Origin: Verrucomicrobiota bacterium
Lineage (GTDB): Bacteria > Verrucomicrobiota > Verrucomicrobiia > Limisphaerales > JAEYXS01
Direction: 5' to 3'
DNA: 64,000 bases
Assembly (NCBI GenBank): GCA_023431185.1
Contig: JAEYXS010000078.1
Location: forward strand, 43-64,042
Shown here in pieces: positions 26,928 to 55,567 of this stretch. Under the pieces are notes generated by a model. It did not search any database, had not been told where the DNA came from, and saw only the letters and a list, made by a program, of their open reading frames with translations. The translations under genes and the position numbers were made by a program. How positions within the stretch are numbered: position 1 is the first letter of the stretch; every line of letters begins with the position of its first letter.

Positions 26928-26948
26928 TGGAAGGCGCAAAGGGACTGG

Positions 26949-28259: not shown

Positions 28260-28266
28260 GCTGCTT

Positions 28267-28893: not shown

Positions 28894-28895
28894 GC

Positions 28896-31304: not shown

Positions 31305-31367
31305 TCCGGCGTCGTCCGGCCGACCGAATAGCTTTGAGGACAGCCAAAACCCCGGCAGACTAAGGCC

Positions 31368-38120: not shown

Positions 38121-38775
38121 AGAAACCGTAAAATGACAATGGGGACATAGGTTTTTGAATCTTCCCCGAGAATAGTGCGGAATAGCGAGGCTAGGGCTAA
38201 CGGCGTCCCATGATGAATGGTATTGTGGAGCATGAATAAGAGATGGAACAGAAGAGAACAGGGGACGGCGGCGAAGGAATCATCTGGCGGTCCTTTTTTT
38301 GAAATTTTTTGCCGATGTAGCCGATATAGCCGATGGAAGGCTGACGGGATGATGAAAGGAGGGATACAAAGGGGGCATGAAGCCGAACTGGATAGAAAGA
38401 GAAAGGAGCAGATCGAGAAACAAGGCCGACCGGGTTTTTCAAGAGGCGGCGGGGAAGGCCTCGGCAAGTGCTCAAAGCAGTCTCTCCCTGCCGTGTCGGG
38501 GGCGACAGGATAATACATTGCTTGGGCAATTCTTGTGTATGGCGGGCTGGTGTGAGTGTGGTAGAAATTACGTTCAGACCCTGTTTGTTGCCAGCCATGG
38601 GCGTGCTGTGGGCGTGGGAAAACGGTGTGAACGTGAAATTTTGTGTGGATGTAGTGAGATGTAGTGAGATGTAACGGTGGGAAACAGGTCTGGAATGGTC
38701 CATATTGTAGCGTGCTGGGCGATCCAGCGAGGCGGTGAAGAGCCGCCAGAAAAAACGAATTTGAGAGGCAAGCGT

Positions 38776-41985: not shown

Positions 41986-41990
41986 GACGT

Positions 41991-43448: not shown

Positions 43449-43611
43449 ATGGCTTGGGTATTGGAAGAACCGGCGCAGAACCGGTAGAAGCTGCTGCCGA
43501 CGCCCAAGGGTTTTGCCTGCATACCTTTGGAGCATGCGCAGTGCGAAGTGCAGGTGACCTTCCCCCGAAAGAGTGGACATCTGGGGGCAAGTGAGGCGGA
43601 GAAAGAGCGGT

Positions 43612-44886
43612 TTAGATTTCCGTCCAAGAGGTGACGATGAAGCCGCGGTTCAGATTGATACGACCCAAGTTCTCATCGTAGTGAAAATTGAAGTTGCCGT
43701 TCATCTGCGCGGACTTGGTGACACTGGCCCCGGTCATGTCTTCGAGGCTGCTGTTGCCACCGCCATTCATGGTGAAATTGGCGTTGGGTGCATAAATGAC
43801 TCCCGTAAAGGCCCCGTTGCCATTGATGGTCAACGAAGTGTTTGCCGGAGTTCCCCAGTAAAAAAAGTTGGTGGCATTGCCTGCCTGATTCACCACGCCT
43901 TGGCCGGTGATCTTCGCGTTGGCACCGGCCATGTAAAGATTGAGGGTGGCCCCAGGCTGGATGGTGATGGTATCCTGACCGGTCATGTTGATCTCGGTTT
44001 CCACGATCAGCCGGGCCTGCACGTTGCTTTTTACCAGCATGTTGCCCGTCAGGCTGGAGATGCGGTAGTCACCGCTGGAACTGATGACATACTGGTAGCC
44101 GGCGGCGTTGCCGGGGGTGAAGCCGCCACCATAGGGCAGCACCACGTCGGGAAAAGCGACGTTCATGTCGTCGCTGAAATAGCCGGGCTGGATGCCGCTG
44201 GTGCCGGAAGCTTGCCAGGCGAGATCACCCACCGCGCCGTTGTTGATGCCTACGGAACCGCCGGGGCCGGTGGAGACACGGCCGTAGATATTGGCATTGC
44301 CGGTGGAGAGGGCGTTAATGATGCCGGAGTTGGTCGCCACATCCCCGTTGGCTTTGCGCCGGCTGAGGAGGTAGAGGCCGTTGGTGCTGTAGTTGGGGTC
44401 GGCGGAGTCGAAGCTGTCCACGACGATGTTTTGGCCGTTCAGCGTGATCTGCCCCTTGGCGACCATGCCTTTGGAGAACATGCCGTCGCGCTTGGTCTCT
44501 ACGCGTACCACGCGGCGGATGACGTCACCACTCAAAGGAGCCTTCATGAAGGCGCTGGAATAGATCACCGGGGTGATGCCATTGGAGATGACGATCAAGG
44601 TGGAGCCGCTGCCCATGGTCCGCCATTTGAAGCAACCTTGGGCTGAGGCAAACCAGCCGTTGGAGACCAGATTGGTACCTTTGGTCTGGTAGAGATGGGC
44701 GAGGGCCTCCTCGATGCCGCCCTCGAGCACCGGGATGCAAGTGTTCCAGGTCTGGGAGCGCGCGATCGACTGGTTCTGTGCGTTGACCAGATTGAGGTAG
44801 GCCGCCAGCATGAAGCCGAGGACGAAGCTGGCGAGCAAAACCCCGATGATGACGGAGCCTTGGTGGCGCTGCGGGCGGATGATCAT
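43612..44886 (-). CDS. PilX-N-like pilus/pseudopilus-associated protein (paralog of 53954..55567)
   Basis: N-terminal anchor 'GSVIIGVLLASFVLGFMLAAYL', 'RSQTWNTCIPVLEGGIEEALAHL', Gly/Asn-rich beta region, and the ending 'NFHYDENLG...SWTEI'. Confidence 0.75.
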   Translation of the reverse strand: MIIRPQRHQGSVIIGVLLASFVLGFMLAAYLNLVNAQNQSIARSQTWNTCIPVLEGGIEEALAHLYQTKGTNLVSNGWFASAQGCFKWRTMGSGSTLIVISNGITPVIYSSAFMKAPLSGDVIRRVVRVETKRDGMFSKGMVAKGQITLNGQNIVVDSFDSADPNYSTNGLYLLSRRKANGDVATNSGIINALSTGNANIYGRVSTGPGGSVGINNGAVGDLAWQASGTSGIQPGYFSDDMNVAFPDVVLPYGGGFTPGNAAGYQYVISSSGDYRISSLTGNMLVKSNVQARLIVETEINMTGQDTITIQPGATLNLYMAGANAKITGQGVVNQAGNATNFFYWGTPANTSLTINGNGAFTGVIYAPNANFTMNGGGNSSLEDMTGASVTKSAQMNGNFNFHYDENLGRINLNRGFIVTSWTEI

Positions 44887-44908
44887 AGTGTCTCAGTGAC
44901 CGATATTT

Positions 44909-45364
44909 TTAGAAAATGTAATTCTGCAAGCCGTAGCGGGAGATCATAGTCCGCATCTCGCGGCGATGGACGATATTGCCGGAGTTCCAATTTACGGTGA
45001 CCACCACCTGACGCATATCGGACGCATAGCTCTCGTTAAAGCTGACGTTCGTGATGGTCAGGGTGCCCCGGTATTGGAGTCCGCTGCCGCCATCGGCGGG
45101 CCAGAATGGCGCGGTGAAATTCGCCGGCACGAAGCCGCTCGTGTTGACCTGGTCCCAACTGTATAGCCGGATGGTCTCCATCTTCTCCAGCATCACCTGG
45201 GTGGCGCGCAGGTTCTCCCGGGCGTTACGGATGATCGCGAGGCCAGAACTGATGCCCGCGTACAGGGAGACGAAGAGGATGCCGAAGATGGCCATGCCGA
45301 TCATCGTCTCGATCAATGTCATGGCCCGTTGGGATGGGCGGGCGGTCTTGAATGTCAGTTTCAT
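44909..45364 (-). CDS. Prepilin-type N-terminal domain protein (pseudopilin; paralog of 52910..53422)
   Basis: 'QRAMTLIETMIGMAIFGILFVSLYAG' is a class-III signal-like motif with Glu at +5. Confidence 0.8.
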   Translation of the reverse strand: MKLTFKTARPSQRAMTLIETMIGMAIFGILFVSLYAGISSGLAIIRNARENLRATQVMLEKMETIRLYSWDQVNTSGFVPANFTAPFWPADGGSGLQYRGTLTITNVSFNESYASDMRQVVVTVNWNSGNIVHRREMRTMISRYGLQNYIF

Positions 45365-45405
45365 GGGCGGTCGGGCATATCTGATACCAATCTGATTGCT
45401 AGTTT

Positions 45406-45421
45406 AGCAGGCGGCTTGCCA
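45406..45421 (-). promoter_or_regulatory. Candidate sigma-54 (-24/-12) promoter
   Basis: The reverse strand reads TGGCAAGCCGCCTGCT, with GG and GC at the canonical spacing, about 40 nt upstream of ATG 45364. Confidence 0.45.
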
Positions 45422-45736
45422 CGATGGATGCTGTTCCATGAAAATGGACGGGAGGGTAAATAATCTTTTTCAGATAGTGCTGAAAGGGGGTGGTTTTATA
45501 ATGCTTTTTGATTCTATTCGCAGAGCATAGTTTGTAATTGGAGGTGTCGGATGCTTAAGGAAGCATTTCAACAGCAGTTTCTTGGGGCGCGATTGCCAAG
45601 TTGATTCGGCCGTTCTGGGTGGTGTCTGTATGTAAAGTAAATGGTCGTGTCCTGTTTTGGTGCATTATATAAATTTCAACGGAATACACTTTTCAGACGG
45701 CCTCGGCTTCTTAGATTCTGGCCGCACAGATTACTG

Positions 45737-46372
45737 ATGCAATCACAGCGCGAAGAGTATTATCTTTTAGTGGACGGCGAATCCGCCGGTCCCTATACGC
45801 TCGCTGACCTGCACCAGATGTGGATGGACGACAAGATCACCTTGGATACGTTGTTCGTCCGGCCTGGGATGCGCAAATGCCAGCCCATCAATCTGATCTT
45901 GGGCATGGTGATCAATTACCATGCAGCCCAGCCGGTGGAAGTGAAGCCGGTAGTGGAGGCAGAGGAGCATCCGTTGTCACCTTTCAAAGGGGTTCTGCGT
46001 TGGGGCTTGATGGGCTTGTGCTTGGTTGTGTTCATCTGGCTGATCGGTCCCGGGCGGAGCGACAGCGAATACAAATCGGACATCATGCGGGGCATGGTGG
46101 TGGTGAAACCGGCTGATTTGCATGTCTTCAACGAAAGCGAGTTTGAGTGGCAGGAAGTGTATGTGCACCTGAATGGCCAGCCACCCGGCGGTTATAAACG
46201 GAAATTGAGCAGCTTGCCGCCGGGCATGGGTAAAGACATCACGCTCTTGGAATTTACGGACGTCAGCGGGGCGTCTTTTGAGCCTTGGCGCATGAGTGTC
46301 ACCGAGGTTTGGGTCGGCAACGAGAAGATCGGCTACCGTACTTTCCGGGTTCGTCCGCTGCCTCTGCAGTAA
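45737..46372 (+). CDS. GYF_2 (DUF4339)-like domain / single-TM protein
   Basis: ATG 45737. 'YYLLVDGESAGPYTLADLHQMWMDDKITLDTLFVRPGM'. TM segment 'WGLMGLCLVVFIWLIGP'. The C-terminal ~100 aa are of unknown function. Confidence 0.6.
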   Translation: MQSQREEYYLLVDGESAGPYTLADLHQMWMDDKITLDTLFVRPGMRKCQPINLILGMVINYHAAQPVEVKPVVEAEEHPLSPFKGVLRWGLMGLCLVVFIWLIGPGRSDSEYKSDIMRGMVVVKPADLHVFNESEFEWQEVYVHLNGQPPGGYKRKLSSLPPGMGKDITLLEFTDVSGASFEPWRMSVTEVWVGNEKIGYRTFRVRPLPLQ

Positions 46373-46506
46373 GCCGGTTCTCACCGTTAAACAACCCGTC
46401 TTTGGCAAAAAAAGGCCGTAATCCGGGCTGCTTGGTATTATTCTTTATCTGTTTGCCAGTTTTAAGAATGGCCTGCACTCTGCTGGATGTCAGGCTGCTT
46501 ACAGGT

Positions 46507-47124
46507 ATGGTGGCGCATCTTTTTCAAAGACAAGGCTTCAGACTGCATGCTTGGCCGGCCAAGGCAGGCTGGCTGGTGTGCGCTTTGGCTTTCGCGCTGT
46601 CAGGGGCCAGCACCCAGGCCCAGGAGGCGACTACCAATGCCACACCGGCGAAACCAGTGCAGTTGCAAGCCAACGATAACGGGAAGGGCAACGGCAACAA
46701 CGGGAACAACGGGAACAACGGCAAGGCCAAGGGAAAAAACAAACCCACGGTGGCAGAGCGGCCGCAAGTCCTCGGGGCCCAAGGCAGTCCCGCTGAAAAA
46801 GGAAAGCCGGAGCGTCCGGGTAATCCGAACCCCACGGACCCGGCCGAGGTCACCAGCCAGATCTCCCGGTTTCAGTCCGCCCGGGCGGAATTTTTGGCGG
46901 CTCAAAAAGAGCTGAACCTGCAGAAGAAGGACGCCACCGAAGAACAACGGGCCGTCCTGCGTGAAAAGGTCAAGGAAGCGCTGGAGAAGTGGAAGGAAGA
47001 ACACAAGCAGTTCGCGGAAGAGCAGAAGGAGCGCAGCAAGGAGATGAAGCTGGAGCTGCACCCTGACTTGGGGAAAGTGGTGGATGGAGCTGGTGGAGGT
47101 GGAGGCAACGGCCGCGACCGTTAG
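46507..47124 (+). CDS. Secreted low-complexity / coiled-coil protein
   Basis: Signal 'WLVCALAFALSGASTQAQ' (alternative ATG 46468). 'NGKGNGNNGNNGNNGKAKGKNK'. Charged helix 'EEQRAVLREKVKEALEKWKEEHKQFAEEQKE'. Confidence 0.6.
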   Translation: MVAHLFQRQGFRLHAWPAKAGWLVCALAFALSGASTQAQEATTNATPAKPVQLQANDNGKGNGNNGNNGNNGKAKGKNKPTVAERPQVLGAQGSPAEKGKPERPGNPNPTDPAEVTSQISRFQSARAEFLAAQKELNLQKKDATEEQRAVLREKVKEALEKWKEEHKQFAEEQKERSKEMKLELHPDLGKVVDGAGGGGGNGRDR

Positions 47125-47141
47125 GTCAACGGGGCAAGCAC

Positions 47142-48293
47142 ATGACGGGAGACGCCAAACGCCGCCTGGCTCAGAAGCCTGAAAGAATCGTCCGCTTTAT
47201 TATTCTGGGCATCGTTTCTTTTTCTTCAATCGCCGGGTTCGCCGCCGAGGATGAACTGGACCTCAAAGAGCCTTCGATCTGGAGTCATTTCATCGATCTG
47301 CGTACTGAGGCGGGCTATCGTGACAACCCGACATATGCTGCTTCCTACCCGGAGGGCAGCACTTTTGGTGCGATCAAGCTTGAATACACGCTGGCCAGAT
47401 TGCCCGTTGATGCATGGCAGGTCATGGTGTTGACGACGTTGGATGCGACGCGTTTTTTCGACAGCCATTTATCCGACCATGAAATTTATGGCTTCAGTCT
47501 TTTTCAGGTCCAAAAGGAAACCTTGCCGGGATGCCACTGGGAGGCGGGTTTGCAGCATGTATATCAGGACCAGACCATTGACGCCTCAACGACGGTGTTG
47601 AACCAGGGCTCGGTTGCCATCCATGGAAATACTGTTCAAGGCTATGGGCGATGGAAGCAGCAATGGCATTCCGGATGGTGGCTGGCGGCAAAACCGGAGT
47701 TGGAATGGCAGACCGTGGCTGCCCCGTTGGACGGTTCGATTGAATCAGGGTTCACGTTTTCACTGGGACTGGATCAGGGGGCTCGTACCGCGTACTCCAT
47801 AAATTATGGTTTTTGTGAACGGGTATTCGACGAGTTGACAACCACTGATGCATTGGGCGTGGCCTTACTTGGGAATGCGTTGCGCTTTCGGCAGCATAGT
47901 ATCGAAGCTATCTATCGCCGGGAACTGGATGCAGCCAGGCTCTGGCGGTTCACACTCCGGGCAGGTTGGTTACGAAATCAGGACAATGGACAGGGATATT
48001 ATGACTACGACAGGGGCCGAATGGCCCTAGATGTTAGGTGGCGTAAGAAACCTTGGGAAATAAAGCTTTATAGCCGTGCCTCATATTATGATTATAGTGT
48101 CCAGACGATAGCGGGTGTGGGCAGTGATTTGCGGGCAAAAGGGTTGCTCAGTGCCGGCTTGCAAGTGCGACGTGATTTGAAACCAGGCTGGTACGTGGTA
48201 TTACGTGGAGAGCATGAGCAGTCGGTCTCCAATTTGACGGTGGATCGTTATGTGGCAAATCTGGTGAGCATCGGTTTGGGCTGGGAAAACTGA
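47142..48293 (+). CDS. Predicted outer-membrane beta-barrel protein
   Basis: Signal-like 'FIILGIVSFSSIAGFAAE'. About 14 amphipathic, aromatic-capped strands (for example 'WRFTLRAGWLRN', 'WEIKLYSRASYYDY', 'WYVVLRGEHEQ'). Confidence 0.6.
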   Translation: MTGDAKRRLAQKPERIVRFIILGIVSFSSIAGFAAEDELDLKEPSIWSHFIDLRTEAGYRDNPTYAASYPEGSTFGAIKLEYTLARLPVDAWQVMVLTTLDATRFFDSHLSDHEIYGFSLFQVQKETLPGCHWEAGLQHVYQDQTIDASTTVLNQGSVAIHGNTVQGYGRWKQQWHSGWWLAAKPELEWQTVAAPLDGSIESGFTFSLGLDQGARTAYSINYGFCERVFDELTTTDALGVALLGNALRFRQHSIEAIYRRELDAARLWRFTLRAGWLRNQDNGQGYYDYDRGRMALDVRWRKKPWEIKLYSRASYYDYSVQTIAGVGSDLRAKGLLSAGLQVRRDLKPGWYVVLRGEHEQSVSNLTVDRYVANLVSIGLGWEN

Positions 48294-49798
48294 TGGTTGA
48301 GTCAGTGTCAAACAATAGAGATAAACGGCACGGTATGCCTTCTGTGTCGCCAACTGGCAAATACAAGCGAACGCTGGAGCGGCGGCAACTAAACTGGTTG
48401 CCGGTGGCTTCCATTGCTTTGGCTTTGATCCTGCTGGCCGGGGCCATCGCGGCCGGCACCTGGCATTTACGTGACCGCCTCAGAACCCAGGCGGTGAAGA
48501 AAGATGGTGAGGTGATGAAGGCCGTGACGATGATGCAGTATCAGGCCGAGCAGGAGGTCGATCCGCAGTTCTCTTTGGCCGCGCCAGATTCCCAGTTCAT
48601 CGTCTCGCTGAAGGCTTCCTTTTTGCAAGGGGTCATGGGAACCCGCCTGTATGATGCCAAGGGAAATTTCGTCACCTCATTTCCGGAGAACGTGACGGAG
48701 CGAAAACTGGGCGAGCCGGAGTTGCGCCAGCTTCAGACAGTGGACCCGGCCGTGGGCGGGCTGGTTGCGCTTTCGGTCTTCCATCCGGCAAGGAATTTGG
48801 AGCTGGAATTTTTGTCCGATCCCCAGCGGCAGAGCCGAATCGCCCCGATCTTGGAAGTCACCATCCCATTCCATCAGAAGGATGAAACGCAACTGCTCGG
48901 CGTGGCGCAGATCATCATCGACGGACGCGCCAAGGCGGCGGAGTTCGCGCAGCTTGACCGGACACTGGCCACGCAAGCGGGGGTGTTGTTTCTCGTTTGC
49001 GGGGTGTTCATGACGGGTGGTTTGTCCTGGGCTTTCGCGCGGCTGGCCCGGACGAATGCGGAGCTGGCGGAAAGATCGGAAAGCCTGCTGAAGGCCAACC
49101 AGGAACTGGCGATGATGGCGCGTACTTCCGCGGTGGGTGCGGTGGCTGCCAATCTGATGCACGGTCTGAAAAGCCCGCTTTTTGGTCTGATCAATCTTTT
49201 CGCCGCGTGGCGCGCGGCTGACAACGTGGGGGAAAAGGTGGAGTGGAGCACAGCAGTGGACACGGCCCGGCGCATGCAGGCGATGGTGAACGGCGTGATG
49301 GATTTCGTGCGGGACCAGGAAGGGCTTAACGATCATGAGGTCTCCGTGGCGGAATTGCTCCAGTTGGTCGGTGAGAAGGTGACGCCTCTGGCTGAGCAGA
49401 GCCGGGTGCAGTTCCAATGCCAGGGCGAGGTGGATATGGTGTTGAATGCGCGGGTGAGCAACCTGCTGACTTTGATTTTGGTGAACCTGATCCAGAACGC
49501 GATCGAGGCGACCCCTTCGGGCCGGCAGGTGAGGCTGAGCGTCAAGCAGGCGGCCAAAGAGATCGAGTTTGAAGTGGCGGATGAGGGCGGCGGTTTGCGG
49601 CCGGAACTGGAAAGACAACTTTTCCAACCTTGCGAGTCGACGAAAGACGGCGGTAGCGGTCTGGGCCTGGCCATCTGCAAGCAATTGGCCAGGCATATCG
49701 GAGCGGAGCTGGATCTGCGGCGGAATTCGGCACAAGGCTGTGTGTTTGGTCTGCGGTTGCCGCCGGAATTGTTGCCTCCACGCAGCAGCACGGCCTAG
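48293..49798 (+). CDS. Sensor histidine kinase (2 TM, ~180-aa periplasmic domain)
   Basis: The ATG overlaps the upstream TGA (TGATG). H-box 'AANLMHGLKSPL'. 'NLIQNAIEA', 'DEGGGL', 'GGSGLGLAICK'. Confidence 0.85.
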   Translation: MVESVSNNRDKRHGMPSVSPTGKYKRTLERRQLNWLPVASIALALILLAGAIAAGTWHLRDRLRTQAVKKDGEVMKAVTMMQYQAEQEVDPQFSLAAPDSQFIVSLKASFLQGVMGTRLYDAKGNFVTSFPENVTERKLGEPELRQLQTVDPAVGGLVALSVFHPARNLELEFLSDPQRQSRIAPILEVTIPFHQKDETQLLGVAQIIIDGRAKAAEFAQLDRTLATQAGVLFLVCGVFMTGGLSWAFARLARTNAELAERSESLLKANQELAMMARTSAVGAVAANLMHGLKSPLFGLINLFAAWRAADNVGEKVEWSTAVDTARRMQAMVNGVMDFVRDQEGLNDHEVSVAELLQLVGEKVTPLAEQSRVQFQCQGEVDMVLNARVSNLLTLILVNLIQNAIEATPSGRQVRLSVKQAAKEIEFEVADEGGGLRPELERQLFQPCESTKDGGSGLGLAICKQLARHIGAELDLRRNSAQGCVFGLRLPPELLPPRSSTA

Positions 49799-49883
49799 TG
49801 CCGTTGAGGATTTTTTTGTTGTGGTCGGAAAAGCGACAGTATTCGGGAGGCAGACAGGGCGCACACTTTTGGGTGTTGTGCTC

Positions 49884-51950
49884 ATGCGCACCTTGCTTGT
49901 CTTTTTGCTTTGGGCCGGCCCGTTGTTTACCTTGACTGCCCAGACCACTTGGCGCTGGAGCAATCCCCAGCCGCATGGGGCCAACGTGGTGGATATGACG
50001 GAGAAGCTGGGCGTGAAGATCCAGGTGGGTGAAGCTGGCCAGCTCTTCGCCTCGGAGGACATGCTGCTGTGGCAGGCCAAGCCGACCGGTGTCACCAATT
50101 CATTGCGCGCGGTGACTTTTCTGGGGCAGCGCTTGATCGTCACCGCCGAGCGCGGATTGATTCTTTATGCAGATTCTTTGGAAGAATTTTTTTCGGTGGA
50201 CTTGGGAACGGCGGACTGGCTGGAGGCAGTGACCGCTTCGGATCAAAGGGCAGTGGCCGTGGGGGACAATGGAGCGATCTATACAAGCACTGATGGTGTG
50301 GATTGGGGGGATCCGAAGAGTTTGCCGGGGAACAACAAGACCTGGTTGCGCGGGGTGGCTTATGGTGGCAGCACGTTTGTGGCGGTGGGTGAAGGCGGTT
50401 ATATCGCCACGGGCAACAATTCGGCGAGTTCATGGACCACACGGACCAGCGGTGTCACCGAACATTTGAATCGTGCCGCTTACATCGGCAGCAAATTTTG
50501 GGTCGTGGGGAACAACGGGCATATACTCTTCAGTCCCAACGGTACAGCGTGGACGAAGGTGACCAGCGTGAATGTCACCAACAACCTCTTCGCCGTTGCG
50601 GGAACCAACTCCACCATTCTGGTGGCGGGCGATCAGATCGCACTGTTGAGCGAGGATGATGGGGCCACCTGGAAGACGCAGACTGCCACTCCGGATGCTG
50701 CTCAACCGGCGCCGAAGTGGACTTACTACTCGGCCCTGCATACCGAAGGCATCTTCCTTTTGTCCGGTCGCAGCGGAATGACCTTGGAGGGTTTCAAGAC
50801 CAATGCGACGGCGCAAGTCTGGGTGGAGCGTAATGATTCCCACCGGCAATGGCTCTGGTCGGTGCAACGGTTCCCGGATTTTTATCTGGCTGTGGGGGAC
50901 CACGGTACGTTGCTGACCAGTGCGCGCGGGGTGAATTGGGAGCTGGAATTGACGCCTGATGCCGCCACCAATTCCATCTTGCTAGGTGTGGGCGGGACGA
51001 CGAACGGCGCGGTCGCGGTGGGCAACAAGGGCACCATCCTGTTCAGCCCCACGAATTTTGTCTCCGTGCTCTACACAAACCTGGACAGTACGGTGACCAG
51101 CAATTATGTCTCCACCCTCGGCACCTTCTGGCAGGCGGTGACACCGGCACCGGTGAGCGTGGATCTGCAAGGCGTGGCGTACAAGAACGGCATTTATGTC
51201 GTCTGCGGCGGCACCGGCACCATCCTGACCAGTCCGGATGGGACGAACTGGACTTCACGGCTTACACTGACCACGTCGTTCCTCTCCAGTGTGGCTGCGG
51301 GTCCAAGTCAGTTTGTAGCGGTGGGCAACAATGGCACCATCCTGACGAGCAGCGATGGCGTGGTGTGGCTGGCCAATTTGATCCCGCCCACTTCGCGCTG
51401 GCTTTTTAAGGTAAAGTATTTTGACGGCACCTTCATCGCCGTGGGTGAAAACGGCACCATCCTTACCAGTGAGACCGGATTGTTATGGGCCACGCGCAAC
51501 AGCGGCGTGACGAACTGGCTGAACGATGTCGAAAAAGTGAACGGGGAATATTTTGTGGCGGGCAATCAAGGCACGCTCCTGCGCAGCACCGATCTGGCCA
51601 CCTGGACACCCGGTAGTCTGCCCACAAAGAAATCACTTTTCGGCTTGGCATCGTTTGGCGGACAGCTTGTGGCCGCCGGTGTGGAAGGGGCGCTGTTGCG
51701 GATGCAACTGACGCCGGATGTGACGCCGGTAAAGTTCGTGGACTATGGCAAGGTGCTCAATCAGAGCCTGGTCCAGCTCTCTGGAAACACGGATCAAAAA
51801 TTCACGCTGGATACGAGTACCAATCTGGTTGACTGGGTGGAAGGCGTGACCTTTGAGATCGTGGACCGTTCAGGGACATTGTTGATCAAGCAGTCCACCG
51901 ACACCAACGCCACCAACCGGGAGTTTTACCGCGCCCGGATGGTGCCGTGA
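49884..51950 (+). CDS. Secreted multi-blade beta-propeller (Ycf48/BNR-like repeats) with a C-terminal tail domain
   Basis: ATG 49884 gives 'MRTLLVFLLWAGPLFTLTAQ'. There are 11-12 repeats of the form 'VAVG..G.ILTS.DG..W'. The tail is 'STNLVDWV...REFYRARMVP'. Confidence 0.8.
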   Translation: MRTLLVFLLWAGPLFTLTAQTTWRWSNPQPHGANVVDMTEKLGVKIQVGEAGQLFASEDMLLWQAKPTGVTNSLRAVTFLGQRLIVTAERGLILYADSLEEFFSVDLGTADWLEAVTASDQRAVAVGDNGAIYTSTDGVDWGDPKSLPGNNKTWLRGVAYGGSTFVAVGEGGYIATGNNSASSWTTRTSGVTEHLNRAAYIGSKFWVVGNNGHILFSPNGTAWTKVTSVNVTNNLFAVAGTNSTILVAGDQIALLSEDDGATWKTQTATPDAAQPAPKWTYYSALHTEGIFLLSGRSGMTLEGFKTNATAQVWVERNDSHRQWLWSVQRFPDFYLAVGDHGTLLTSARGVNWELELTPDAATNSILLGVGGTTNGAVAVGNKGTILFSPTNFVSVLYTNLDSTVTSNYVSTLGTFWQAVTPAPVSVDLQGVAYKNGIYVVCGGTGTILTSPDGTNWTSRLTLTTSFLSSVAAGPSQFVAVGNNGTILTSSDGVVWLANLIPPTSRWLFKVKYFDGTFIAVGENGTILTSETGLLWATRNSGVTNWLNDVEKVNGEYFVAGNQGTLLRSTDLATWTPGSLPTKKSLFGLASFGGQLVAAGVEGALLRMQLTPDVTPVKFVDYGKVLNQSLVQLSGNTDQKFTLDTSTNLVDWVEGVTFEIVDRSGTLLIKQSTDTNATNREFYRARMVP

Positions 51951-52074
51951 CAGTTTTCCCAGTTTTTATACCCCGGACATGGCCCGGTATTTTTTTCCGC
52001 AGCCAGATTTTATAACGGAAGGCTGTTGCATTTTGTGACAAGATGCTATTTTCTGCCGCCGTCAACACTTCAAC

Positions 52075-52737
52075 ATGACCATGCAAACTGGCAAAGCGAT
52101 GATTCGTATTCTGATTGCAGATGATCACCATGTGGTTCGTGTCGGGCTCCGTGCCATGTTCAGCCGGTTTCCGGCCATTGAAGTGGTGGGTGTCGCTGAA
52201 AATGGGGAACAGGCCGTGATCGAGGCGCAGCGCCTGAAGCCGGATGTCGTTTTGCTGGATGTGCGGATGACAGATGGTTCCTCCTTTGATGCCTGCCGAA
52301 AAATATTGGCCACGGTGGAATCAACGCATGTGATTTTTCTGACATCCTTCGCGGATGATAACACGGTTTTTGATGCGATTTCGGCCGGTGCCGACGGGTA
52401 TTTATTGAAAGATGTCGCTGAGCAGGAACTGGTGAATGCGATCACCCAAGTGGCGGAAGGCCGGTCTATTCTGGATCCTTCCGTGACGCGCCGGGTGTTG
52501 GGCCGGGTGAAGGCCGGAACCGAATCTCCCGCGCCCGCGGGGCTGGAGGTTCTCTCCGCCCAAGAGCGCCGTGTGCTGGCGTTGGTGGCGGAAGGCAAGA
52601 CCAACAAGGAAATCGCGATGGTCATGGGCCTAAGCGACAAGACCGTGAAGAATTACCTGAGCAATTTGCTCGACAAGTTGAATCTCTCCCGCCGATCACA
52701 GGCCGCTGCCTTCTTCGTGCAGCACACTATTAAATAG
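52075..52737 (+). CDS. NarL/LuxR-family response regulator
   Basis: Receiver 'ILIADDHHVVR...VLLDVRMTDG...K'. LuxR HTH 'LSAQERRVLALVAEGKTNKEIAMVMGLSDKTVKNYLSNLLDKL'. Confidence 0.9.
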   Translation: MTMQTGKAMIRILIADDHHVVRVGLRAMFSRFPAIEVVGVAENGEQAVIEAQRLKPDVVLLDVRMTDGSSFDACRKILATVESTHVIFLTSFADDNTVFDAISAGADGYLLKDVAEQELVNAITQVAEGRSILDPSVTRRVLGRVKAGTESPAPAGLEVLSAQERRVLALVAEGKTNKEIAMVMGLSDKTVKNYLSNLLDKLNLSRRSQAAAFFVQHTIK

Positions 52738-52830
52738 AGCTATATAGCCCTATATAATTAGGGCCTTATTATTGGTCCTTACGGCACTGTTTAATACGGT
52801 GCCATTTCCCTTAATCTCAAGGCAATAGAG

Positions 52831-52846
52831 TGGCATTGCCGCTGCT
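52831..52846 (+). promoter_or_regulatory. Candidate sigma-54 (-24/-12) promoter
   Basis: TGGCATTGCCGCTGCT fits TGGCAC-N5-TTGCW, with GG and GC correctly spaced, about 65 nt upstream of ATG 52910. Confidence 0.45.
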
Positions 52847-52909
52847 TCTATATCTATTACGTGAATGCGCAATGGATAGGGACAAGTTCAGGCGCAAACA
52901 TTCGCAGCC

Positions 52910-53422
52910 ATGAGATTTTCAATAACAAGCAGGAGCCGAAGCAACACGAAGCGAGCTTTTACACTTATTGAAGTGATGATCTCCATGGCGGTGGTGGCGA
53001 TGATGTTCGTTTCGCTTTATGCGGGGATCACACAGGGGCTGGCGGTGATTTCGACGGCCCGTGAGAACATGCGGGCCACCCAGATCATGATCGAAAAGAT
53101 AGAGCTGTTGCGGCTCTATTCATGGGACCAAATGAACACGGCTGGGTTTATCCCTGCGGCCTTTGCTGAACGGCTTATGCCCAGTAATGCCACCAATTCT
53201 TCTACTACAGCTTCAACGGTCGCGGGCTTGGCCACCCCCAGCGGTTCGGGTACGATTTTTGTGGGGACCATCCAGTTGGGAGCGGCTCCGGTGAATGATG
53301 GTTACACCAGTGCCATGCGGCAGGCCACACTCACGGTCACCTGGACCAACGGCAACATCCGCCGCAGCCGGAGCATGCAAACCCTCGTCGCCCAACGGGG
53401 CATCCACGATTATGTATATTGA
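52910..53422 (+). CDS. Prepilin-type N-terminal domain protein (pseudopilin)
   Basis: 'KRAFTLIEVMISMAVVAMMFVSLYAG'. Alignable with 44909..45364 ('AREN.RATQ.M.EK.E..RLYSWDQ.NT.GF'). Confidence 0.8.
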   Translation: MRFSITSRSRSNTKRAFTLIEVMISMAVVAMMFVSLYAGITQGLAVISTARENMRATQIMIEKIELLRLYSWDQMNTAGFIPAAFAERLMPSNATNSSTTASTVAGLATPSGSGTIFVGTIQLGAAPVNDGYTSAMRQATLTVTWTNGNIRRSRSMQTLVAQRGIHDYVY

Positions 53423-53948
53423 GCTCAAACGTCGCCGGGCTTTGGCCATGACACTGGTGGAGATGCTGATTGCTGTGGGTATCGGCAGCGTGGTGATGGC
53501 GGCGGTGGCTTCCCTGTCGTTCTACACGGCCCGCAGCATGGCGGCGATGTCCAATTATGCGGACCTCGACCGGCAGAGCCGCAATGCACTTGACCAGATG
53601 ACATTGAAGATCCGCTCGGCCAGCCGGCTGACTTCCTTCAACACCACCAACGTCACTTTTCTGTATAATGGCCAGACGCTGACGTACAGCTATTCGTCGG
53701 GCACCAAGCGCCTGACCGAAACTTTGGGAACCCAGGCCAGTGTCTTGCTGGAGGATTGCAATCAGCTTCAGTTCAGCATGTTTCAACGGAATGTGATCAG
53801 CAATTCCTTCAACCAGTACACGACCACGACGACGAATGACGCCAAATCCATCATCGTCACTTGGACGTGTTCCCGGTCGCTTTTGGGCAACTTGATCAAT
53901 TCGGAAAGCGTGCAATCCGCCCGCATTGTGATCCGCAATAACCCTTAG
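53412..53948 (+). CDS. Prepilin-type N-terminal domain protein (PulJ/PilW-like)
   Basis: ATG 53412 (11-nt overlap with the upstream gene). 'RRALAMTLVEMLIAVGIGSVVMAAV'. Confidence 0.75.
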   Translation: MYIELKRRRALAMTLVEMLIAVGIGSVVMAAVASLSFYTARSMAAMSNYADLDRQSRNALDQMTLKIRSASRLTSFNTTNVTFLYNGQTLTYSYSSGTKRLTETLGTQASVLLEDCNQLQFSMFQRNVISNSFNQYTTTTTNDAKSIIVTWTCSRSLLGNLINSESVQSARIVIRNNP

Positions 53949-53953
53949 AATTT

Positions 53954-55567
53954 ATGATTATCAGGCGTTCCTCCCGCGAGCAGGGCAGCATGCTCATAAT
54001 GACGGTGGTGATCTCTGGCATCATCGGTCTCACTCTGGCCAGTTACCTGTCCATGGTGCAGGCGCAGCATCTGAACGTGATGCGTTCGCAAACGTGGAAC
54101 GCGGCCATCCCGGCCTGCGAATCCGGGATTGAAGAAGCTTTGGCGCACTTGAACAGCATCGGTGATGCGGATCGGGCCACCAATGGCTGGGTGCTCTCCA
54201 CCGGCACTTACAACAAGACCAACACGGTCGGTGGCGCCCGGTATGAGGTGAGCATCTCTTCCGCCAATCCACCGGTGGTGACGAGTTATGGTTATGTGGC
54301 GGCTCCTTTGGGCAAAGGCGAGGTGAGCCGGGCGGTCCGGGTCACGACAACGCGGGAGACGAGCGGCATGAAAGGTTTGGTGGCCAAGGGCAGCATCACG
54401 TTGGGGCCAGGCAGTGTGGTGGACAGTTATGATTCGCGGATCACATTTACATACAACGCCGCCACCGCGAACTCCAATGCTTTCGTGGGCGCGGTAGGCG
54501 GTAATATCAGTGGCGGCAGCATCATCAAAGGGGACGTGGCCACAGGGCCGGGTTATACCATCAGTTCTCCGCATACGGGCAGCTCGGCGAATGACCTGAG
54601 CATGTCCTTTCCGCCGGTGAGCGCGCCGTTTGCGAGCGGTTTCACACCAGGCCCGGGCACGGTCACGGTCACGAATTTCAGTGTGGGCAGCTCCACCATC
54701 ATCACGAATGTGGTGCCAAGTCCTTTCCCGGCCAGCGGCGTGATCACGAACACTGGTTCCTTCACGAACACGTCGCCGCCGGCTTCGGGTGCCTACACCA
54801 CGCAAACATCGTCGACGAATACGACCTCGTGGCCCGGTGCCTCGGTGGGCACCATCACGACCAATGTCACGGCCATCACCGGAGCAAAGGATTTTCCGGC
54901 AGCCGGCACGTATATGGGCAGCGTTACGACCACGACCACACCGACCCGTTATCATTACAACCGGATCGACAGTTATTCCTATTCGATCACGCGCTATGTG
55001 TATACGACCCAGACGTACACCTATTCCACGTCCACCACCAACGCCATCAGCACCACGACTTCATCGTATGACTATGTATTGGACACGGGGAACTACAAAA
55101 CGACCTCCATCAGCATGAGCGGCCAGGCGGAAATGCTGGTGAAAGGAGATGCCGTGCTTTGGGTGACGGACAGTTTTACCAGTTCAGGCAATGCGCGCAT
55201 CACCATCCTGCCGGGGGCCAGTCTGCAACTTTATGTGGGGGATGGTTCTGGCACCGGGTCGGAAATTAAGATTTCCGGCAACGGAGTCCTGAACATGGCC
55301 GGGGACACGGAGAAAATGAGCATCTTCGGCCTGAATGACTGCACCGTGGTCAAGATGGCTGGCAATGGGGCTTACGTAGGCACGGTTTACGCACCCAATG
55401 CACAGTTGCAGGGCAAAGGTGGCGGCAACGATGTGGATGATTTCCAAGGTGCCGCCATTGTGGGCAGTGTCAGTTACAACGGCCATTTCAACTTCCACTA
55501 CGATGAGAAGCTGGGTGACAACGGCGGGCTGACAGAATGGAAGATCGCCTCTTGGACGGAGTTTTAG
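53954..55567 (+). CDS. PilX-N-like pilus/pseudopilus-associated protein, Thr/Ser-rich
   Basis: 'GSMLIMTVVISGIIGLTLASYL', 'RSQTWNAAIPACESGIEEALAHL', long T/S-rich middle, and the ending 'NFHYDEKLG...SWTEF'. Confidence 0.75.
   Translation: MIIRRSSREQGSMLIMTVVISGIIGLTLASYLSMVQAQHLNVMRSQTWNAAIPACESGIEEALAHLNSIGDADRATNGWVLSTGTYNKTNTVGGARYEVSISSANPPVVTSYGYVAAPLGKGEVSRAVRVTTTRETSGMKGLVAKGSITLGPGSVVDSYDSRITFTYNAATANSNAFVGAVGGNISGGSIIKGDVATGPGYTISSPHTGSSANDLSMSFPPVSAPFASGFTPGPGTVTVTNFSVGSSTIITNVVPSPFPASGVITNTGSFTNTSPPASGAYTTQTSSTNTTSWPGASVGTITTNVTAITGAKDFPAAGTYMGSVTTTTTPTRYHYNRIDSYSYSITRYVYTTQTYTYSTSTTNAISTTTSSYDYVLDTGNYKTTSISMSGQAEMLVKGDAVLWVTDSFTSSGNARITILPGASLQLYVGDGSGTGSEIKISGNGVLNMAGDTEKMSIFGLNDCTVVKMAGNGAYVGTVYAPNAQLQGKGGGNDVDDFQGAAIVGSVSYNGHFNFHYDEKLGDNGGLTEWKIASWTEF

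What the first reader, a model, noticed from the sequence alone, without database searches (positions are those of the whole stretch)
43612..55567. Inverted pair of paralogous pseudopilin/PilX-like modules bracketing a sensor and outer-membrane cassette, with no pilus machinery nearby
Left arm (minus strand): pseudopilin 44909..45364, then PilX-like 43612..44886. Right arm (plus strand): pseudopilin 52910..53422, second pseudopilin 53412..53948, then PilX-like 53954..55567.

The arms are clear paralogs. The small pilins share 'FVSLYAGI..GLA.I..AREN.RATQ.M.EK.E..RLYSWDQ.NT.GF.PA.F'. The large proteins both start 'MIIR', share 'RSQTWN..IP..E.GIEEALAHL', and end 'NFHYDE.LG...SWTE[IF]'.

Between the arms lie a GYF/TM protein, a secreted coiled-coil protein, a predicted OM barrel, a histidine kinase, a 12-blade-type propeller and a NarL regulator. 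No assembly ATPase, platform protein, secretin or prepilin peptidase occurs anywhere in the 64 kb.

The symmetric layout, dedicated regulation and orphan status suggest a self-contained, uncharacterised surface-fibre or pseudopilus accessory system rather than a fragment of a standard T4P/T2SS operon.
Basis: partly seen in the sequence, partly recalled or inferred. Interest (0 to 1): 0.72.

Follow-up and report, generated by a model that had tools for sequence, protein, structure and literature searches.

The report
Sigma-54-controlled minor-pilin gene sets, Verrucomicrobiota
The two "arms" are paralogous sets of minor (tip or priming) pilin genes of a kind found in very many Verrucomicrobiota genomes away from any pilus machine, so this is an undescribed member of a known kind rather than a self-contained new fibre system.

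Summary
All ORFs are at the stated coordinates. The arms are true paralogs: small pilins 43% identical (E 7e-53), large proteins 37-39% (E 2e-42). No pilus or type II secretion machinery gene was found in the 64 kb.

- The unit pilin1-pilin2-large protein (DUF7305) is common in Verrucomicrobiota, with more than 2,000 homologs.
- It is essentially never next to an assembly ATPase.
- The large protein models as a pilin helix and sheet plus a beta-solenoid. Its best structural match is the Thermus tip pilin ComZ.
- So the arms look like minor-pilin tip or priming sets for a type IV filament machine encoded elsewhere.

The mirror-image "bracket" is lineage-specific, seen only in relatives of at least ~72-77% identity. 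More distant genomes carry both paralog types in tandem.

What is conserved is the co-directional array coiled-coil protein, outer-membrane barrel, kinase, propeller, NarL regulator and right-arm trio, found in 9 of 9 cassette loci.

New points:
- Both arms carry conserved sigma-54 (-24/-12) promoters, a family-wide trait.
- The right arm also has a 7-6-7 palindrome found only where the NarL regulator is adjacent.
- In distant relatives the central cassette sits beside an NtrC-type sigma-54 activator.

The parts
43612..44886 (-). Left-arm large protein (424 aa). It is a DUF7305, ComZ/PilX/GspK-like tip pilin: N-terminal hydrophobic helix without Glu5, a pilin-like sheet, and a beta-solenoid.
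   Evidence: Pfam DUF7305, 3e-20. AF2 pLDDT 87.6 with helix 8-68, sheet 79-135, solenoid 141-404 and last strand 413-423. Foldseek top hit is ComZ 6qvi (E 9.7e-6), followed by ice-binding-protein solenoids. pAdhesive_15 is found in 20 of 56 family members.
44909..45364 (-). Left-arm pilin1 (151 aa), a prepilin-type minor pilin with processing site QRA|MTLIE.
   Evidence: N_methyl 3.4e-7 and TIGR02532 1.6e-5. 43% identical to the right-arm pilin1.
45406..45421 (-). Sigma-54 type -24/-12 promoter element TGGCAAGCCGCCTGCT. It ends 41 nt before the left-arm pilin start codon.
   Evidence: TGGCA and TGCT are invariant in 5 orthologous intergenic regions. The same element lies upstream of pilin1 genes family-wide.
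45641..46372 (+). GYF_2-domain protein with a TM segment. The likely start is near 45737. It is divergent from the left arm.
   Evidence: GYF_2 3.3e-9. Present only in bracket loci, plus weak homologs next to trios in L015 and L017.
46469..46484 (+). Weaker sigma-54-like element TGGCCTGCACTCTGCT, about 137 nt upstream of the coiled-coil gene.
   Evidence: Conserved as TGGYCTGCA..TGCT in 8 of 8 cassette loci. Canonical TGGCA elements sit upstream of the homologous gene in L093 and L091.
46606..47124 (+). Small exported Lys/Glu-rich coiled-coil protein. The ORF opens at 46285 and the likely start is 46606.
   Evidence: translation. It always precedes the barrel gene, also in L091, L092 and L093.
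47142..48293 (+). 16-strand outer-membrane beta-barrel, porin or channel-like.
   Evidence: AF2 pLDDT 79.4 with 16 strands. Foldseek hits OmpG, BcsC, chitoporin, OccK and AlgE, E about 1e-7. 535 representative homologs at E<=1e-3.
48293..49798 (+). Sensor histidine kinase (two TM segments, periplasmic domain, HisKA and HATPase_c). Its start overlaps the barrel gene's stop by 1 nt.
   Evidence: best NCBIfam matches AtoS, PhoR, PrsK, ZraS, all below cut-off. Homologs in L093 and L031 lie in a cassette headed by an NtrC-type activator gene.
49884..51950 (+). Exported BNR/Asp-box-type beta-propeller protein of the DUF6242 family.
   Evidence: Pfam DUF6242 3.8e-9. Seven S-x-D-G-x-x-W-like motifs spaced at about 40-aa multiples. 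Always follows the kinase.
52075..52737 (+). NarL/FixJ-family response regulator (receiver plus GerE HTH).
   Evidence: Orthologs at 53-63% identity sit directly upstream of trios in about 17 distant loci. In 15 of these they follow a HisKA_3/PAS kinase.
52747..52764 (.). Palindrome GCCCTA-TATAAT-TAGGGC, the candidate operator of the NarL-type regulator. Its centre is 76 nt upstream of the -24 GG.
   Evidence: Found in 16 of 25 regulator-linked pilin1 upstream regions and 0 of 55 regulator-less ones (Fisher 7.6e-11). In L059 and L047 it lies far from the regulator's stop codon, so it is not simply that gene's terminator.
52783..52803 (.). Second conserved inverted repeat, GGCAC-N11-GTGCC, between the palindrome and the promoter. 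Function unknown.
   Evidence: Conserved in 8 loci, with paired changes in L087 (GGCTC...GAGCC).
52831..52846 (+). Sigma-54 type -24/-12 promoter element TGGCATTGCCGCTGCT. It ends 63 nt before the right-arm pilin1 start codon.
   Evidence: TAGAGTGGCA and CTGCT are invariant in 8 orthologous regions.
52910..53422 (+). Right-arm pilin1 (170 aa), a prepilin-type minor pilin with processing site KRA|FTLIE. Weakly GspI/ComGE-like.
   Evidence: N_methyl 2.7e-7. ComGE 8.9e-6 and GspI 1.1e-3, both below cut-off.
53412..53948 (+). Right-arm pilin2 (178 aa), a prepilin-type minor pilin with processing site ALA|MTLVE. It occupies the GspJ/PilW-like position. Its start overlaps pilin1 by 11 nt.
   Evidence: N_methyl 2.9e-5. 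22 of 23 family members have N_methyl.
53954..55567 (+). Right-arm large protein (537 aa). It is a DUF7305 tip-pilin paralog with a Ser/Thr-rich insertion.
   Evidence: DUF7305 8.8e-17. Paralogous to the left-arm large protein. R-type orthologs at 41-68% identity in L086, L059, L045 and L055.

Best explanation
**What it is.** The two arms are paralogous minor-pilin gene sets. Each encodes the tip or priming complex of a type IV filament, either a type IV pilus or a T2SS-type endopilus. The assembly ATPase, platform, prepilin peptidase, secretin and major pilin are encoded elsewhere in the genome.

**The subunits.**
- The small proteins are prepilins. Pilin1 is in the GspI/PilV-like position and pilin2 in the GspJ/PilW-like position.
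- The large DUF7305 protein is the GspK/PilX/ComZ-like cap. It has a pilin helix and sheet carrying an ice-binding-like beta-solenoid, which would sit at the filament tip and probably act as an adhesive or ligand-binding head.
- Alternative sets would give the same machine filaments with different tips.

**Regulation.**
- Both sets are transcribed from sigma-54 promoters, so they need an NtrC-type activator that is not in the window.
- The right set carries an extra 7-6-7 palindrome that travels with the adjacent NarL-type response regulator and is probably its operator.

**The central genes.** The coiled-coil protein, outer-membrane barrel, histidine kinase and BNR propeller form a separate, older envelope-sensing cassette that is also sigma-54 driven. 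In distant relatives it is headed by an NtrC-type activator.

**History.** In this lineage the cassette has fused with the regulator-trio module. The left set, which has lost pilin2, and a GYF gene were then placed head-to-head next to it.

**Shown:** paralogy, pilin signatures, the fold, synteny patterns, promoter and operator motifs and their enrichment.

**Inferred:** tip location, which machine is used, which regulator the kinase phosphorylates, and the signal sensed.
For: **Pilin identity.** N_methyl/TIGR02532 hits in all three small proteins and in 20 of 22 and 22 of 23 family members.

**Tip-pilin fold.**
- AF2 pLDDT 87.6.
- Foldseek best hit is ComZ 6qvi_B (E 9.7e-6), followed by FfIBP-type solenoids.
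- ComZ is itself described as a GspK-like pilin domain plus an FfIBP-like solenoid (PMC6561018).
- Cyanobacterial PilX proteins have the same design and define alternative priming sets (bioRxiv 10.64898/2026.02.12.705559).

**Ubiquity and orphan status.**
- More than 2,076 homologs.
- Trio architecture in most of 80 genome loci.
- Neighbours are housekeeping genes.
- No PilB/GspE Walker A motif in 1.33 Mb.

**Sigma-54 control.**
- The elements are invariant in ortholog alignments.
- 46 of 62 pilin1 upstream regions match, against about 3 expected.
- The element is also upstream of orphan DUF7305 genes.
- Activator genes are adjacent to trios in L019, L025 and L084.

**Regulator link.** The regulator precedes trios in about 17 distant loci. 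The palindrome occurs in 16 of 25 regulator-linked regions against 0 of 55 regulator-less ones.

**Cassette.**
- It is co-linear with the right arm in 9 of 9 cassette loci.
- It is headed by an NtrC-type activator in L093 and L031.

**Derived bracket.** Tandem L-type and R-type sets occur in L059, L045, L055 and L072.
Against: - No machinery, major pilin, rpoN or activator gene could be shown for this genome. The tools give no access to the rest of it.
- Pfam PilX_N does not match any of 56 family members.
- GspI/ComGE/GspJ-type models match only the N-terminal helix, below cut-off.
- Profile searches of PDB sequences find nothing beyond the N-terminal helix.
- TM-scores to ComZ are low (0.22), so the match is at domain level and not global.
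- Pilin1 mostly has Ala rather than Gly at position -1, which is a poorer prepilin-peptidase site.
- The left arm lacks pilin2, so it cannot form a canonical three-part complex by itself.
- A NarL-type regulator cannot itself activate sigma-54, so its role at that promoter is unclear.
- The loci compared are phylogenetically related, so the enrichment statistics overstate independence.
Confidence: 0.62

Rival explanations
1. The arms plus the central cassette form a self-contained, uncharacterised surface-fibre or pseudopilus accessory system. It works without a canonical T4P/T2SS machine, perhaps exporting through the 16-strand barrel.
For: - No machinery in the window.
- The cassette and right arm are co-conserved in 9 of 9 loci.
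- An outer-membrane barrel lies in the cluster.
Against: - Trios occur in dozens of loci with neither cassette nor barrel.
- The coiled-coil/barrel pair also occurs alone (L091).
- The cassette occurs without an adjacent trio in L093.
- Class-III signal peptides imply a prepilin peptidase and an assembly ATPase (established knowledge).
- A 16-strand porin-like barrel is too narrow for a pilus of about 6 nm.
- The bracket layout is lost in L086, L087 and L090.
Confidence: 0.06
2. The sets are GspI/J/K-type tip complexes of a type II secretion endopilus. They select or push secreted substrates and do not cap an extracellular pilus.
For: - The three-gene order small, medium, large-without-Glu5 mirrors GspI-GspJ-GspK.
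- There are weak GspI/XpsI hits.
- ComZ's pilin domain is closest to GspK (PMC6561018).
- The window's lineage encodes many exported enzymes, such as the S8 protease and, in related loci, sulfatases.
Against: - Multiple alternative sets per genome, including four in tandem in L072 and orphan extra caps.
- The large adhesin-like solenoid heads (pAdhesive_15) fit surface-exposed tips better than a periplasmic piston.
- No GspH-like fourth pilin was found.
- The scores to Gsp models are far below cut-off.
Confidence: 0.2
3. The juxtaposition is incidental. The central cassette is an unrelated envelope-stress or nutrient two-component module that happens to lie between two pilin modules.
For: - The cassette family is much broader than the trio link: 535 barrel representatives, and L091 and L093 lack trios.
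- Flanks of the block differ in every genome, so this region rearranges often.
Against: - The same co-directional order, cassette then regulator then trio, holds down to 55% barrel identity.
- All three transcription units carry -24/-12 type elements.
- An activator-headed cassette lies 3.9 kb from a trio in the distant L031.
Confidence: 0.12

Closest known systems
ComZ-PilA2 competence tip pilins of Thermus thermophilus (PDB 6QVI; PMC6561018)
   Same: - A large pilin-like protein with an N-terminal hydrophobic helix and a GspK-like pilin sheet.
- An ice-binding-protein-like triangular beta-solenoid placed before the last strand.
- It is encoded next to small minor pilins.
- It is the best Foldseek hit for the left-arm large protein.
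   Different: - No detectable sequence similarity.
- The solenoid here is shorter, about 260 aa against about 380.
- A different phylum.
- No evidence for DNA binding.
- The gene sets are separated from other pilus genes and are sigma-54 controlled.
Alternative core minor-pilin sets of cyanobacteria (PilX_Com/PilV_Com and PilX_EPS/PilV_EPS; bioRxiv 10.64898/2026.02.12.705559) and the three minor-pilin/PilY1 clusters of Myxococcus xanthus (PMC7541494, title and abstract only)
   Same: - Several paralogous minor-pilin sets per genome, encoded away from the machine.
- Each is able to prime a filament.
- PilX members carry a beta-solenoid cap.
   Different: - The sets here have three genes, or two in the left arm, with no FimT/FimU/GspH-type member and no PilY1.
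- They have dedicated two-component genes and sigma-54 promoters.
- No experimental data exist.
GspI-GspJ-GspK pseudopilus tip complex of type II secretion (PDB 3CI0, cited in PMC6561018)
   Same: - Gene order and size gradient.
- The largest subunit lacks Glu5 and caps the fibre.
   Different: - GspK carries an alpha-helical insertion rather than a solenoid.
- gspH-K lie inside the gsp operon.
- The models TIGR01707 and others are matched only weakly, below cut-off.
PilS-PilR/sigma-54 control of pilin genes in Pseudomonas, Myxococcus and Geobacter (own knowledge)
   Same: Pilin genes are read from -24/-12 promoters under a two-component system with an NtrC-type activator. Such activators are adjacent to trios or to the cassette in L019, L025, L031, L084 and L093.
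   Different: - The regulated genes here are minor pilins and not the major pilin.
- The adjacent regulator in the window is NarL-type, with its own palindrome.
- The activator is unlinked.
Verru_Chthon cassette (TIGR02596-TIGR02600)
   Same: Multi-copy cassettes of prepilin-type proteins plus a large protein in Verrucomicrobia.
   Different: Scores are far below the family cut-offs: 15.7 against 51.4 bits for protein B and 21.5 against 256.5 for protein C, N-terminus only. This is a different family.

Membership tests
Type IV pilin / pseudopilin superfamily | Class-III signal peptide: short basic leader, G/A at -1, hydrophobic +1, Glu at +5, and a hydrophobic alpha1N helix (Pfam N_methyl PF07963, TIGR02532) | tested here: met
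   All three small proteins are above the Pfam cut-off (30.0, 30.3 and 23.9 bits against 21.2). The sites are RA|MTLIE, RA|FTLIE and LA|MTLVE. Position -1 is Ala here and in most pilin1 homologs.
Type IV pilin / pseudopilin superfamily | The same signature in the large DUF7305 proteins | tested here: not met
   There is no N_methyl hit. The N-terminus reads QG|SVIIG, with a near-invariant Gly10 and a hydrophobic helix but no Glu5. This is the pattern of GspK/PilX-type caps, so it does not argue against a pilin role.
PilX (Pfam PilX_N, PF14341) | A match to the PilX N-terminal model | tested here: not met
   0 of 56 family members match at E<=0.1.
ComZ / solenoid-PilX class of tip pilins | Pilin helix plus antiparallel sheet, with a triangular ice-binding-like beta-solenoid inserted before the C-terminal strand | tested here: met
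   AF2 secondary-structure order is helix 8-68, sheet 79-135, solenoid 141-404, final strand 413-423. Foldseek gives ComZ at E 9.7e-6 and FfIBP at 4e-3 to 5e-3. pAdhesive_15 is present in 20 of 56 members. The 3D pairing of the last strand was not inspected.
ComZ / solenoid-PilX class of tip pilins | Location at the filament tip and a complex with the neighbouring minor pilins | not testable with these tools
   This needs multimer modelling or experiments.
GspI / GspJ / GspK minor pseudopilins | Scores above the NCBIfam cut-offs (TIGR01707 gspI 44.35; related models) | tested here: not met
   gspI scores 14.6 and 19.4 bits, ComGE 21.8 and 25.7 against 49, and PRK10557 13.8-17 against 120.
Canonical T2SS/T4P operon | Assembly ATPase, platform protein, secretin or prepilin peptidase in the same cluster | tested here: not met
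   None appears in Pfam scans of about 40 window ORFs. No PilB/GspE Walker A motif occurs in the window or in 87 related loci. That regex had no positive control in the data.
DUF7305 (PF23981) | Score above the gathering threshold of 27 bits | tested here: met
   73.3 and 62.0 bits. 56 of 56 homologs match.
Verru_Chthon cassette (TIGR02598 / TIGR02599) | Scores above 51.4 and 256.5 bits | tested here: not met
   15.7 and 21.5 bits.
Sigma-54 dependent promoter | GG at -24 and GC at -12 with the TGGCA-N7-TGCW spacing, conserved and placed upstream of the gene | tested here: met
   Elements at 52831-52846(+) and 45406-45421(-). They are invariant in orthologs. 46 of 62 family upstream regions match, against about 3 expected.
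Sigma-54 dependent promoter | rpoN and a cognate enhancer-binding activator present in the genome | not testable with these tools
   No GAFTGA-type activator is in the window. Such activators are present in the related loci L019, L025, L031, L084 and L093.
NarL/FixJ response regulators | Receiver domain plus GerE/LuxR HTH | tested here: met
   Response_reg 5e-24 and GerE 3e-19.
Outer-membrane beta-barrel channels | Signal peptide and a closed antiparallel barrel | tested here: met
   AF2 gives 16 strands at pLDDT 79.4. 337 PDB barrel hits at E<=1e-3, including OmpG, BcsC, ChiP, OccK and AlgE. No Pfam family matches.

The most novel reading that the evidence does not exclude
Verrucomicrobiota may use a sensor-gated "tip-swap" system. 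An outer-membrane channel, a periplasmic coiled-coil protein, a BNR propeller and a histidine kinase would sense an envelope or glycan signal. Through an NtrC-type activator acting at sigma-54 promoters and a NarL-type regulator acting at a 7-6-7 palindrome, the cell would choose which ComZ-like solenoid tip complex is loaded onto a single type IV filament machine. That choice would switch the fibre's binding specificity. In this lineage the kinase may have been rewired to the NarL regulator when two modules fused, each losing one partner.
Probability: 0.22. Interest if true: 0.6.

Novelty: new member of a known kind. Interest (0 to 1): 0.4.

Why it matters
Pilus and secretion biology in Verrucomicrobiota is almost unstudied. 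DUF7305 appears in no paper of the searched library.

This work gives that large family a testable role:
- It is a ComZ/PilX-like solenoid cap of a type IV filament.
- It is encoded in small sets scattered through the genome.
- It is read from sigma-54 promoters and often sits beside its own two-component system.

If correct, abundant soil and freshwater Verrucomicrobiota diversify one filament machine through interchangeable, separately regulated tips. That parallels recent findings in cyanobacteria and Myxococcus.

The predicted promoter, operator and sensor cassette also give concrete handles for experiments: transcription-start mapping, gel-shift assays and deletions.

The work corrects the idea that this locus is a stand-alone new fibre system.

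Tried and rejected
- **Invertible or recombining element.** DNA-level inverted repeats between the arms are only 27-41 nt at 78-85% complementarity, and they lie in conserved coding motifs such as NFHYDE. Rejected.
- **Sequence-profile searches of PDB** for the large protein, pilin1 and pilin2 found nothing beyond weak matches to pilin N-terminal helices.
- **Sigma-70 promoter and terminator consensus scan** gave counts no higher than shuffles. Two of its "terminators" turned out to be the conserved palindromes.
- **Sigma-54 spacing.** My first pattern used the wrong spacing (N6) and found nothing. With N7 it worked.
- **ATPase motif.** My first Walker A regex was too strict. It was relaxed, still without a positive control in the data. 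The analogous GAFTGA regex did recover known activators.
- **Barrel family size.** The word-indexed search suggested the barrel family was tiny, with 15 hits. The exhaustive HMMER search showed 535 representatives, so the claim of a clade-specific barrel was dropped.
- **Literature** searches for DUF7305 and for the Verru_Chthon cassette returned nothing. A search for T4P machinery in Pedosphaerales-type Verrucomicrobiota gave nothing useful.
- **Machinery in the same genome.** I could not examine the rest of any genome carrying the locus, for example the 5.7-Mb ENA contig of L086, for machinery, rpoN or the activator.
- **Mobile element.** Homology among bracket loci stops exactly at the left-arm stop codon and the flanks differ in every genome. 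No integrase, transposase or repeats were seen, so this was not pursued.

Full report
**1. The observation**

ORF listing confirms every gene at the stated coordinates.

- Left arm, minus strand: a 151-aa protein (44909-45364) followed after 22 nt by a 424-aa protein (43612-44886).
- Right arm, plus strand: 170 aa (52910-53422), 178 aa (53412-53948, overlapping by 11 nt) and 537 aa (53954-55567).
- The two first pilins are 43% identical end to end (E 7e-53).
- The two large proteins are 37-39% identical over both their N-terminal and C-terminal halves (E 2e-42 and 7e-29). The right one carries a Ser/Thr-rich insertion.
- The second right-arm pilin is a different family.

Pfam gives N_methyl for all three small proteins and DUF7305 for both large ones. 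The genes between carry GYF_2, HisKA and HATPase_c, DUF6242, and Response_reg and GerE.

About 40 further ORFs in the window were scanned. They hold no T2SS/T4P ATPase, platform, secretin or prepilin peptidase. There is no PilB/GspE-type Walker A motif and no further class-III signal peptide in any frame.

Only the "12-blade" detail could not be checked.

**2. What the arm proteins are**

The left-arm large protein has more than 2,076 homologs. All named ones come from Verrucomicrobiota MAGs, most are 425-440 aa, and all are DUF7305.

An AlphaFold2 model built on 56 homologs is confident (pLDDT 87.6). It shows a long N-terminal helix (8-68), a small antiparallel sheet (79-135), a beta-solenoid (141-404) and a final conserved strand (413-423).

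- Foldseek against the PDB puts the Thermus competence pilin ComZ first (E 9.7e-6), followed by ice-binding-protein solenoids such as FfIBP.
- ComZ's authors reported the same two relationships for ComZ itself: a GspK-like pilin domain with an FfIBP-like solenoid inserted before the last strand. They argued it must sit at the pilus tip with its neighbour PilA2 (PMC6561018).
- A 2026 preprint shows that all cyanobacterial PilX minor pilins have this design, and that alternative PilX/PilV sets prime functionally different pili.
- 20 of 56 family members also match Pfam pAdhesive_15, "ice-binding-like adhesive domain".

The N-terminus (…QG|SVIIG…, no Glu5; Gly10 near-invariant) is the GspK/PilX pattern, although the Pfam PilX_N model itself does not match.

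The small proteins are bona fide prepilins by signature. Their head domains have no detectable sequence relatives in the PDB, and they match GspI/ComGE/GspJ-type models only weakly.

I therefore read each arm as a minor-pilin tip or priming set: pilin1 (I/V-like position), pilin2 (J/W-like position) and a solenoid cap. Tip location and complex formation are inferred and not shown.

**3. How general is it, and is the bracket conserved?**

A scan of one genome per species returned 80 loci, all from Verrucomicrobiota MAGs (a few records carry other organism names). I ran tblastn of the window's proteins against them and clustered their ORFs. The results:

- The standard unit is the co-directional trio pilin1-pilin2-DUF7305.
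- Its neighbours are usually housekeeping genes: OTCase, DXP synthase, fumarase, Mrp. Orphan status is therefore the norm.
- A NarL-type regulator 53-63% identical to the window's sits just upstream of the trio in about 17 distant loci. In 15 of these it is preceded by a 600-880-aa HisKA_3/PAS kinase.
- L059, L045, L055 and L072 carry an L-type set (about 430-aa cap) and an R-type set (about 530-aa cap) in tandem, behind the regulator in L059 and L045. The two paralog types are therefore old, and the inverted layout is derived.
- The full bracket occurs only in close relatives: L001, L006, L009/L088, L089, and partially L007. These are 77-91% identical in the left large protein, and L089 is 72% in the barrel.
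- In those bracket loci, nucleotide homology ends exactly at the left-arm stop codon and the flanks differ in every genome.
- L086, L087 and L090 (barrel 55-60% identical) have coiled-coil, barrel, kinase, propeller, regulator and R-type trio, but no left arm and no GYF gene. L086 has a second R-type trio placed convergently instead.
- Relatives also carry L-type pairs without pilin2 (L010, L014) and orphan caps without any pilin gene (L003, L011-L013).

The left arm and the symmetry are not.

**4. The central cassette**

The 383-aa protein models as a 16-strand barrel. It resembles monomeric porins and polysaccharide or oligosaccharide channels such as OmpG, BcsC, chitoporin, OccK and AlgE.

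The word-indexed search found only 15 homologs. An exhaustive HMMER search found 535 cluster representatives.

Contexts of distant members:

- The small coiled-coil gene always precedes the barrel (L091, L092, L093).
- In L093 the whole cassette of coiled-coil, barrel, kinase and propeller is present at 30-46% identity. It follows directly after an NtrC-type regulator gene with receiver, Sigma54_activat and HTH_8 domains.
- L031 has the same activator-headed cassette 3.9 kb from a trio.

The window's kinase is HisKA-type, and its best NCBIfam matches are AtoS, PhoR, PrsK and ZraS. By general knowledge, AtoS, PrsK and ZraS pair with sigma-54 activators. HisKA kinases can also pair with GerE-type regulators, as in FixL-FixJ.

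No activator of this type lies in the window or in any locus where the cassette is fused to the regulator-trio module.

The simplest history is a fusion of two modules. The sensory cassette lost its adjacent activator gene, and the regulator-trio module lost its HisKA_3 kinase. Whether the kinase now signals to the NarL regulator, to an unlinked activator, or to both is open.

**5. Regulatory anatomy**

This is new relative to the finding.

*Sigma-54 promoters*

- Alignment of the regulator-to-pilin1 spacer from 8 loci, and of the left-arm upstream region from 5 loci, shows invariant TGGCA-N7-TGCT elements. These have the sigma-54 -24/-12 consensus and spacing.
- In the window they are at 52831-52846(+) and 45406-45421(-). 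They end 63 and 41 nt before the start codons. They are the only two intergenic exact matches in 64 kb.
- Across the family the exact motif lies upstream of 25 of 62 pilin1 genes. A match of at least 8 of 9 positions, with GG and GC fixed, lies upstream of 46 of 62, against about 3 expected from its frequency in the same loci.
- Those without it are often second sets in a tandem.
- Orphan cap genes have it too.
- Activator genes lie next to trios in L019, L025 and L084.
- A weaker element, TGGYCTGCA..TGCT, is conserved about 137 nt upstream of the coiled-coil gene in all 8 cassette loci (46469-46484 in the window). Canonical versions occur in L093 and L091.

*Palindrome*

- The right-arm spacer contains the palindrome GCCCTA-N6-TAGGGC (52747-52764).
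- With at most 1 mismatch it occurs upstream of 16 of 25 regulator-linked pilin1 genes and 0 of 55 regulator-less ones (Fisher 7.6e-11). The loci are not phylogenetically independent.
- It lies 76-127 nt upstream of the -24 element.
- In L059 and L047 it is far from the regulator's stop codon, so it is not just that gene's terminator.
- I propose it is the NarL-type regulator's operator. The left arm has no such site.

*Second inverted repeat*

A second inverted repeat (52783-52803) is conserved, with paired changes in L087. It remains unexplained.

**6. Mechanism proposed**

*Shown*

- Two paralogous prepilin-plus-solenoid-cap sets.
- Sigma-54-type promoters on both.
- A regulator-associated palindrome on one.
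- A sigma-54-associated envelope sensor cassette between them.
- No machinery nearby, here or in relatives.

*Inferred*

- The sets are processed by a prepilin peptidase and nucleate filaments on a T4P or T2SS-type machine encoded elsewhere.
- The solenoid cap sits at the tip as an adhesive or ligand-binding head.
- The alternative sets diversify filament function.
- Expression needs sigma-54 plus an NtrC-type activator, probably fed by the cassette kinase. The NarL-type regulator modulates the right set.
- The signal may be an envelope or glycan cue, given a porin-like channel and a BNR propeller. This is speculation.

**7. Rivals**

- A self-contained fibre system is unlikely. Trios occur widely without the cassette, the cassette occurs without trios, and the pilin signal peptides imply standard machinery.
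- A T2SS endopilus tip role cannot be excluded. The multiplicity of sets and the adhesin-like heads argue for surface pili.
- Pure coincidence of cassette and arms is disfavoured by conserved order down to 55% identity, the shared promoter type, and L031.

**8. Novelty and score**

The kind is known: alternative minor-pilin priming sets with a solenoid-bearing PilX/ComZ cap, and sigma-54 control of pilin genes.

New here:

- Assignment of the uncharacterised DUF7305 family and its companion pilins to that kind, in a phylum where pili are barely studied.
- The predicted regulatory sites.
- The fused sensor cassette.

No paper in the searched library mentions DUF7305.

I rate it a new member of a known kind, with interest 0.4.

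Noticed in passing
window 52783-52803: A conserved inverted repeat, GGCAC-N11-GTGCC, lies between the palindrome and the right-arm sigma-54 element. L087 has paired changes on both arms (GGCTC...GAGCC). A related GGCACTAT motif occurs upstream of the left-arm promoter. It could be an activator or IHF site, or an RNA hairpin.
   Followed up: partly
window 44909-45364, 52910-53422 and pilin1 homologs in L001-L085: Pilin1-family proteins mostly have Ala rather than the near-universal Gly at position -1 of the prepilin cleavage site (about 29 Ala against 11 Gly among recognisable sites). Pilin2 proteins mostly have Gly.
   Followed up: partly
L003, L011, L012, L013 (the same genomes as bracket loci L089, L008, L009, L006): A third DUF7305 copy, 74-76% identical to the left-arm large protein, has no pilin gene beside it. 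It has its own perfect sigma-54 element and, in L003, L012 and L013, lies next to a PSCyt/PSD1 gene.
   Followed up: partly
window 43609-43619 and L001, L006, L009, L088, L089: Nucleotide homology among bracket-carrying genomes stops exactly at the left-arm stop codon. Both flanks of the roughly 12-kb block differ in every genome, although no mobility genes were seen.
   Followed up: partly
window 25122-33905: A polysaccharide export and assembly locus. It contains a 601-aa protein with no Pfam match, a BBP2_2-like barrel, a Poly_export (Wza-like) protein, a Wzc-like tyrosine-kinase/ATPase and a Wzy_C O-antigen-ligase-like protein.
   Followed up: no
window 10601-16899 and 38677-43448: Three PSCyt1/PSCyt2/PSD1 proteins, two of them paired with DUF1501 proteins, as is typical of Planctomycetota and Verrucomicrobiota. 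One pair directly abuts the left arm.
   Followed up: no
window 9053-10500: Two adjacent thymidylate-kinase-family paralogs (259 and 227 aa) on the minus strand, overlapping by 16 nt.
   Followed up: no
window 17657-20821 and 59497-64000; L001 20227-21281: Large CHASE/PAS and multi-PAS hybrid histidine kinases lie in the window. A CHASE/PAS/Hpt hybrid kinase also lies about 9 kb from the block in L001. Any relation to the pilin sets is unknown.
   Followed up: no
L072 4547-12352: Four minor-pilin sets in one tandem array (trio, trio, cap, then pilin1-pilin2). This is an extreme case of local expansion of the family.
   Followed up: no
L005 12901-13689; L089 19457-20341: Pseudopilin genes of the N_methyl plus SBP_bac_10 (DUF1559-type) kind lie 1-2 kb from trios in two loci. 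They are possible candidates for a major subunit.
   Followed up: no
window 55650-57323: A 557-aa multi-pass membrane protein with no Pfam match is convergent with the right arm. It is not conserved next to the block in any relative.
   Followed up: partly
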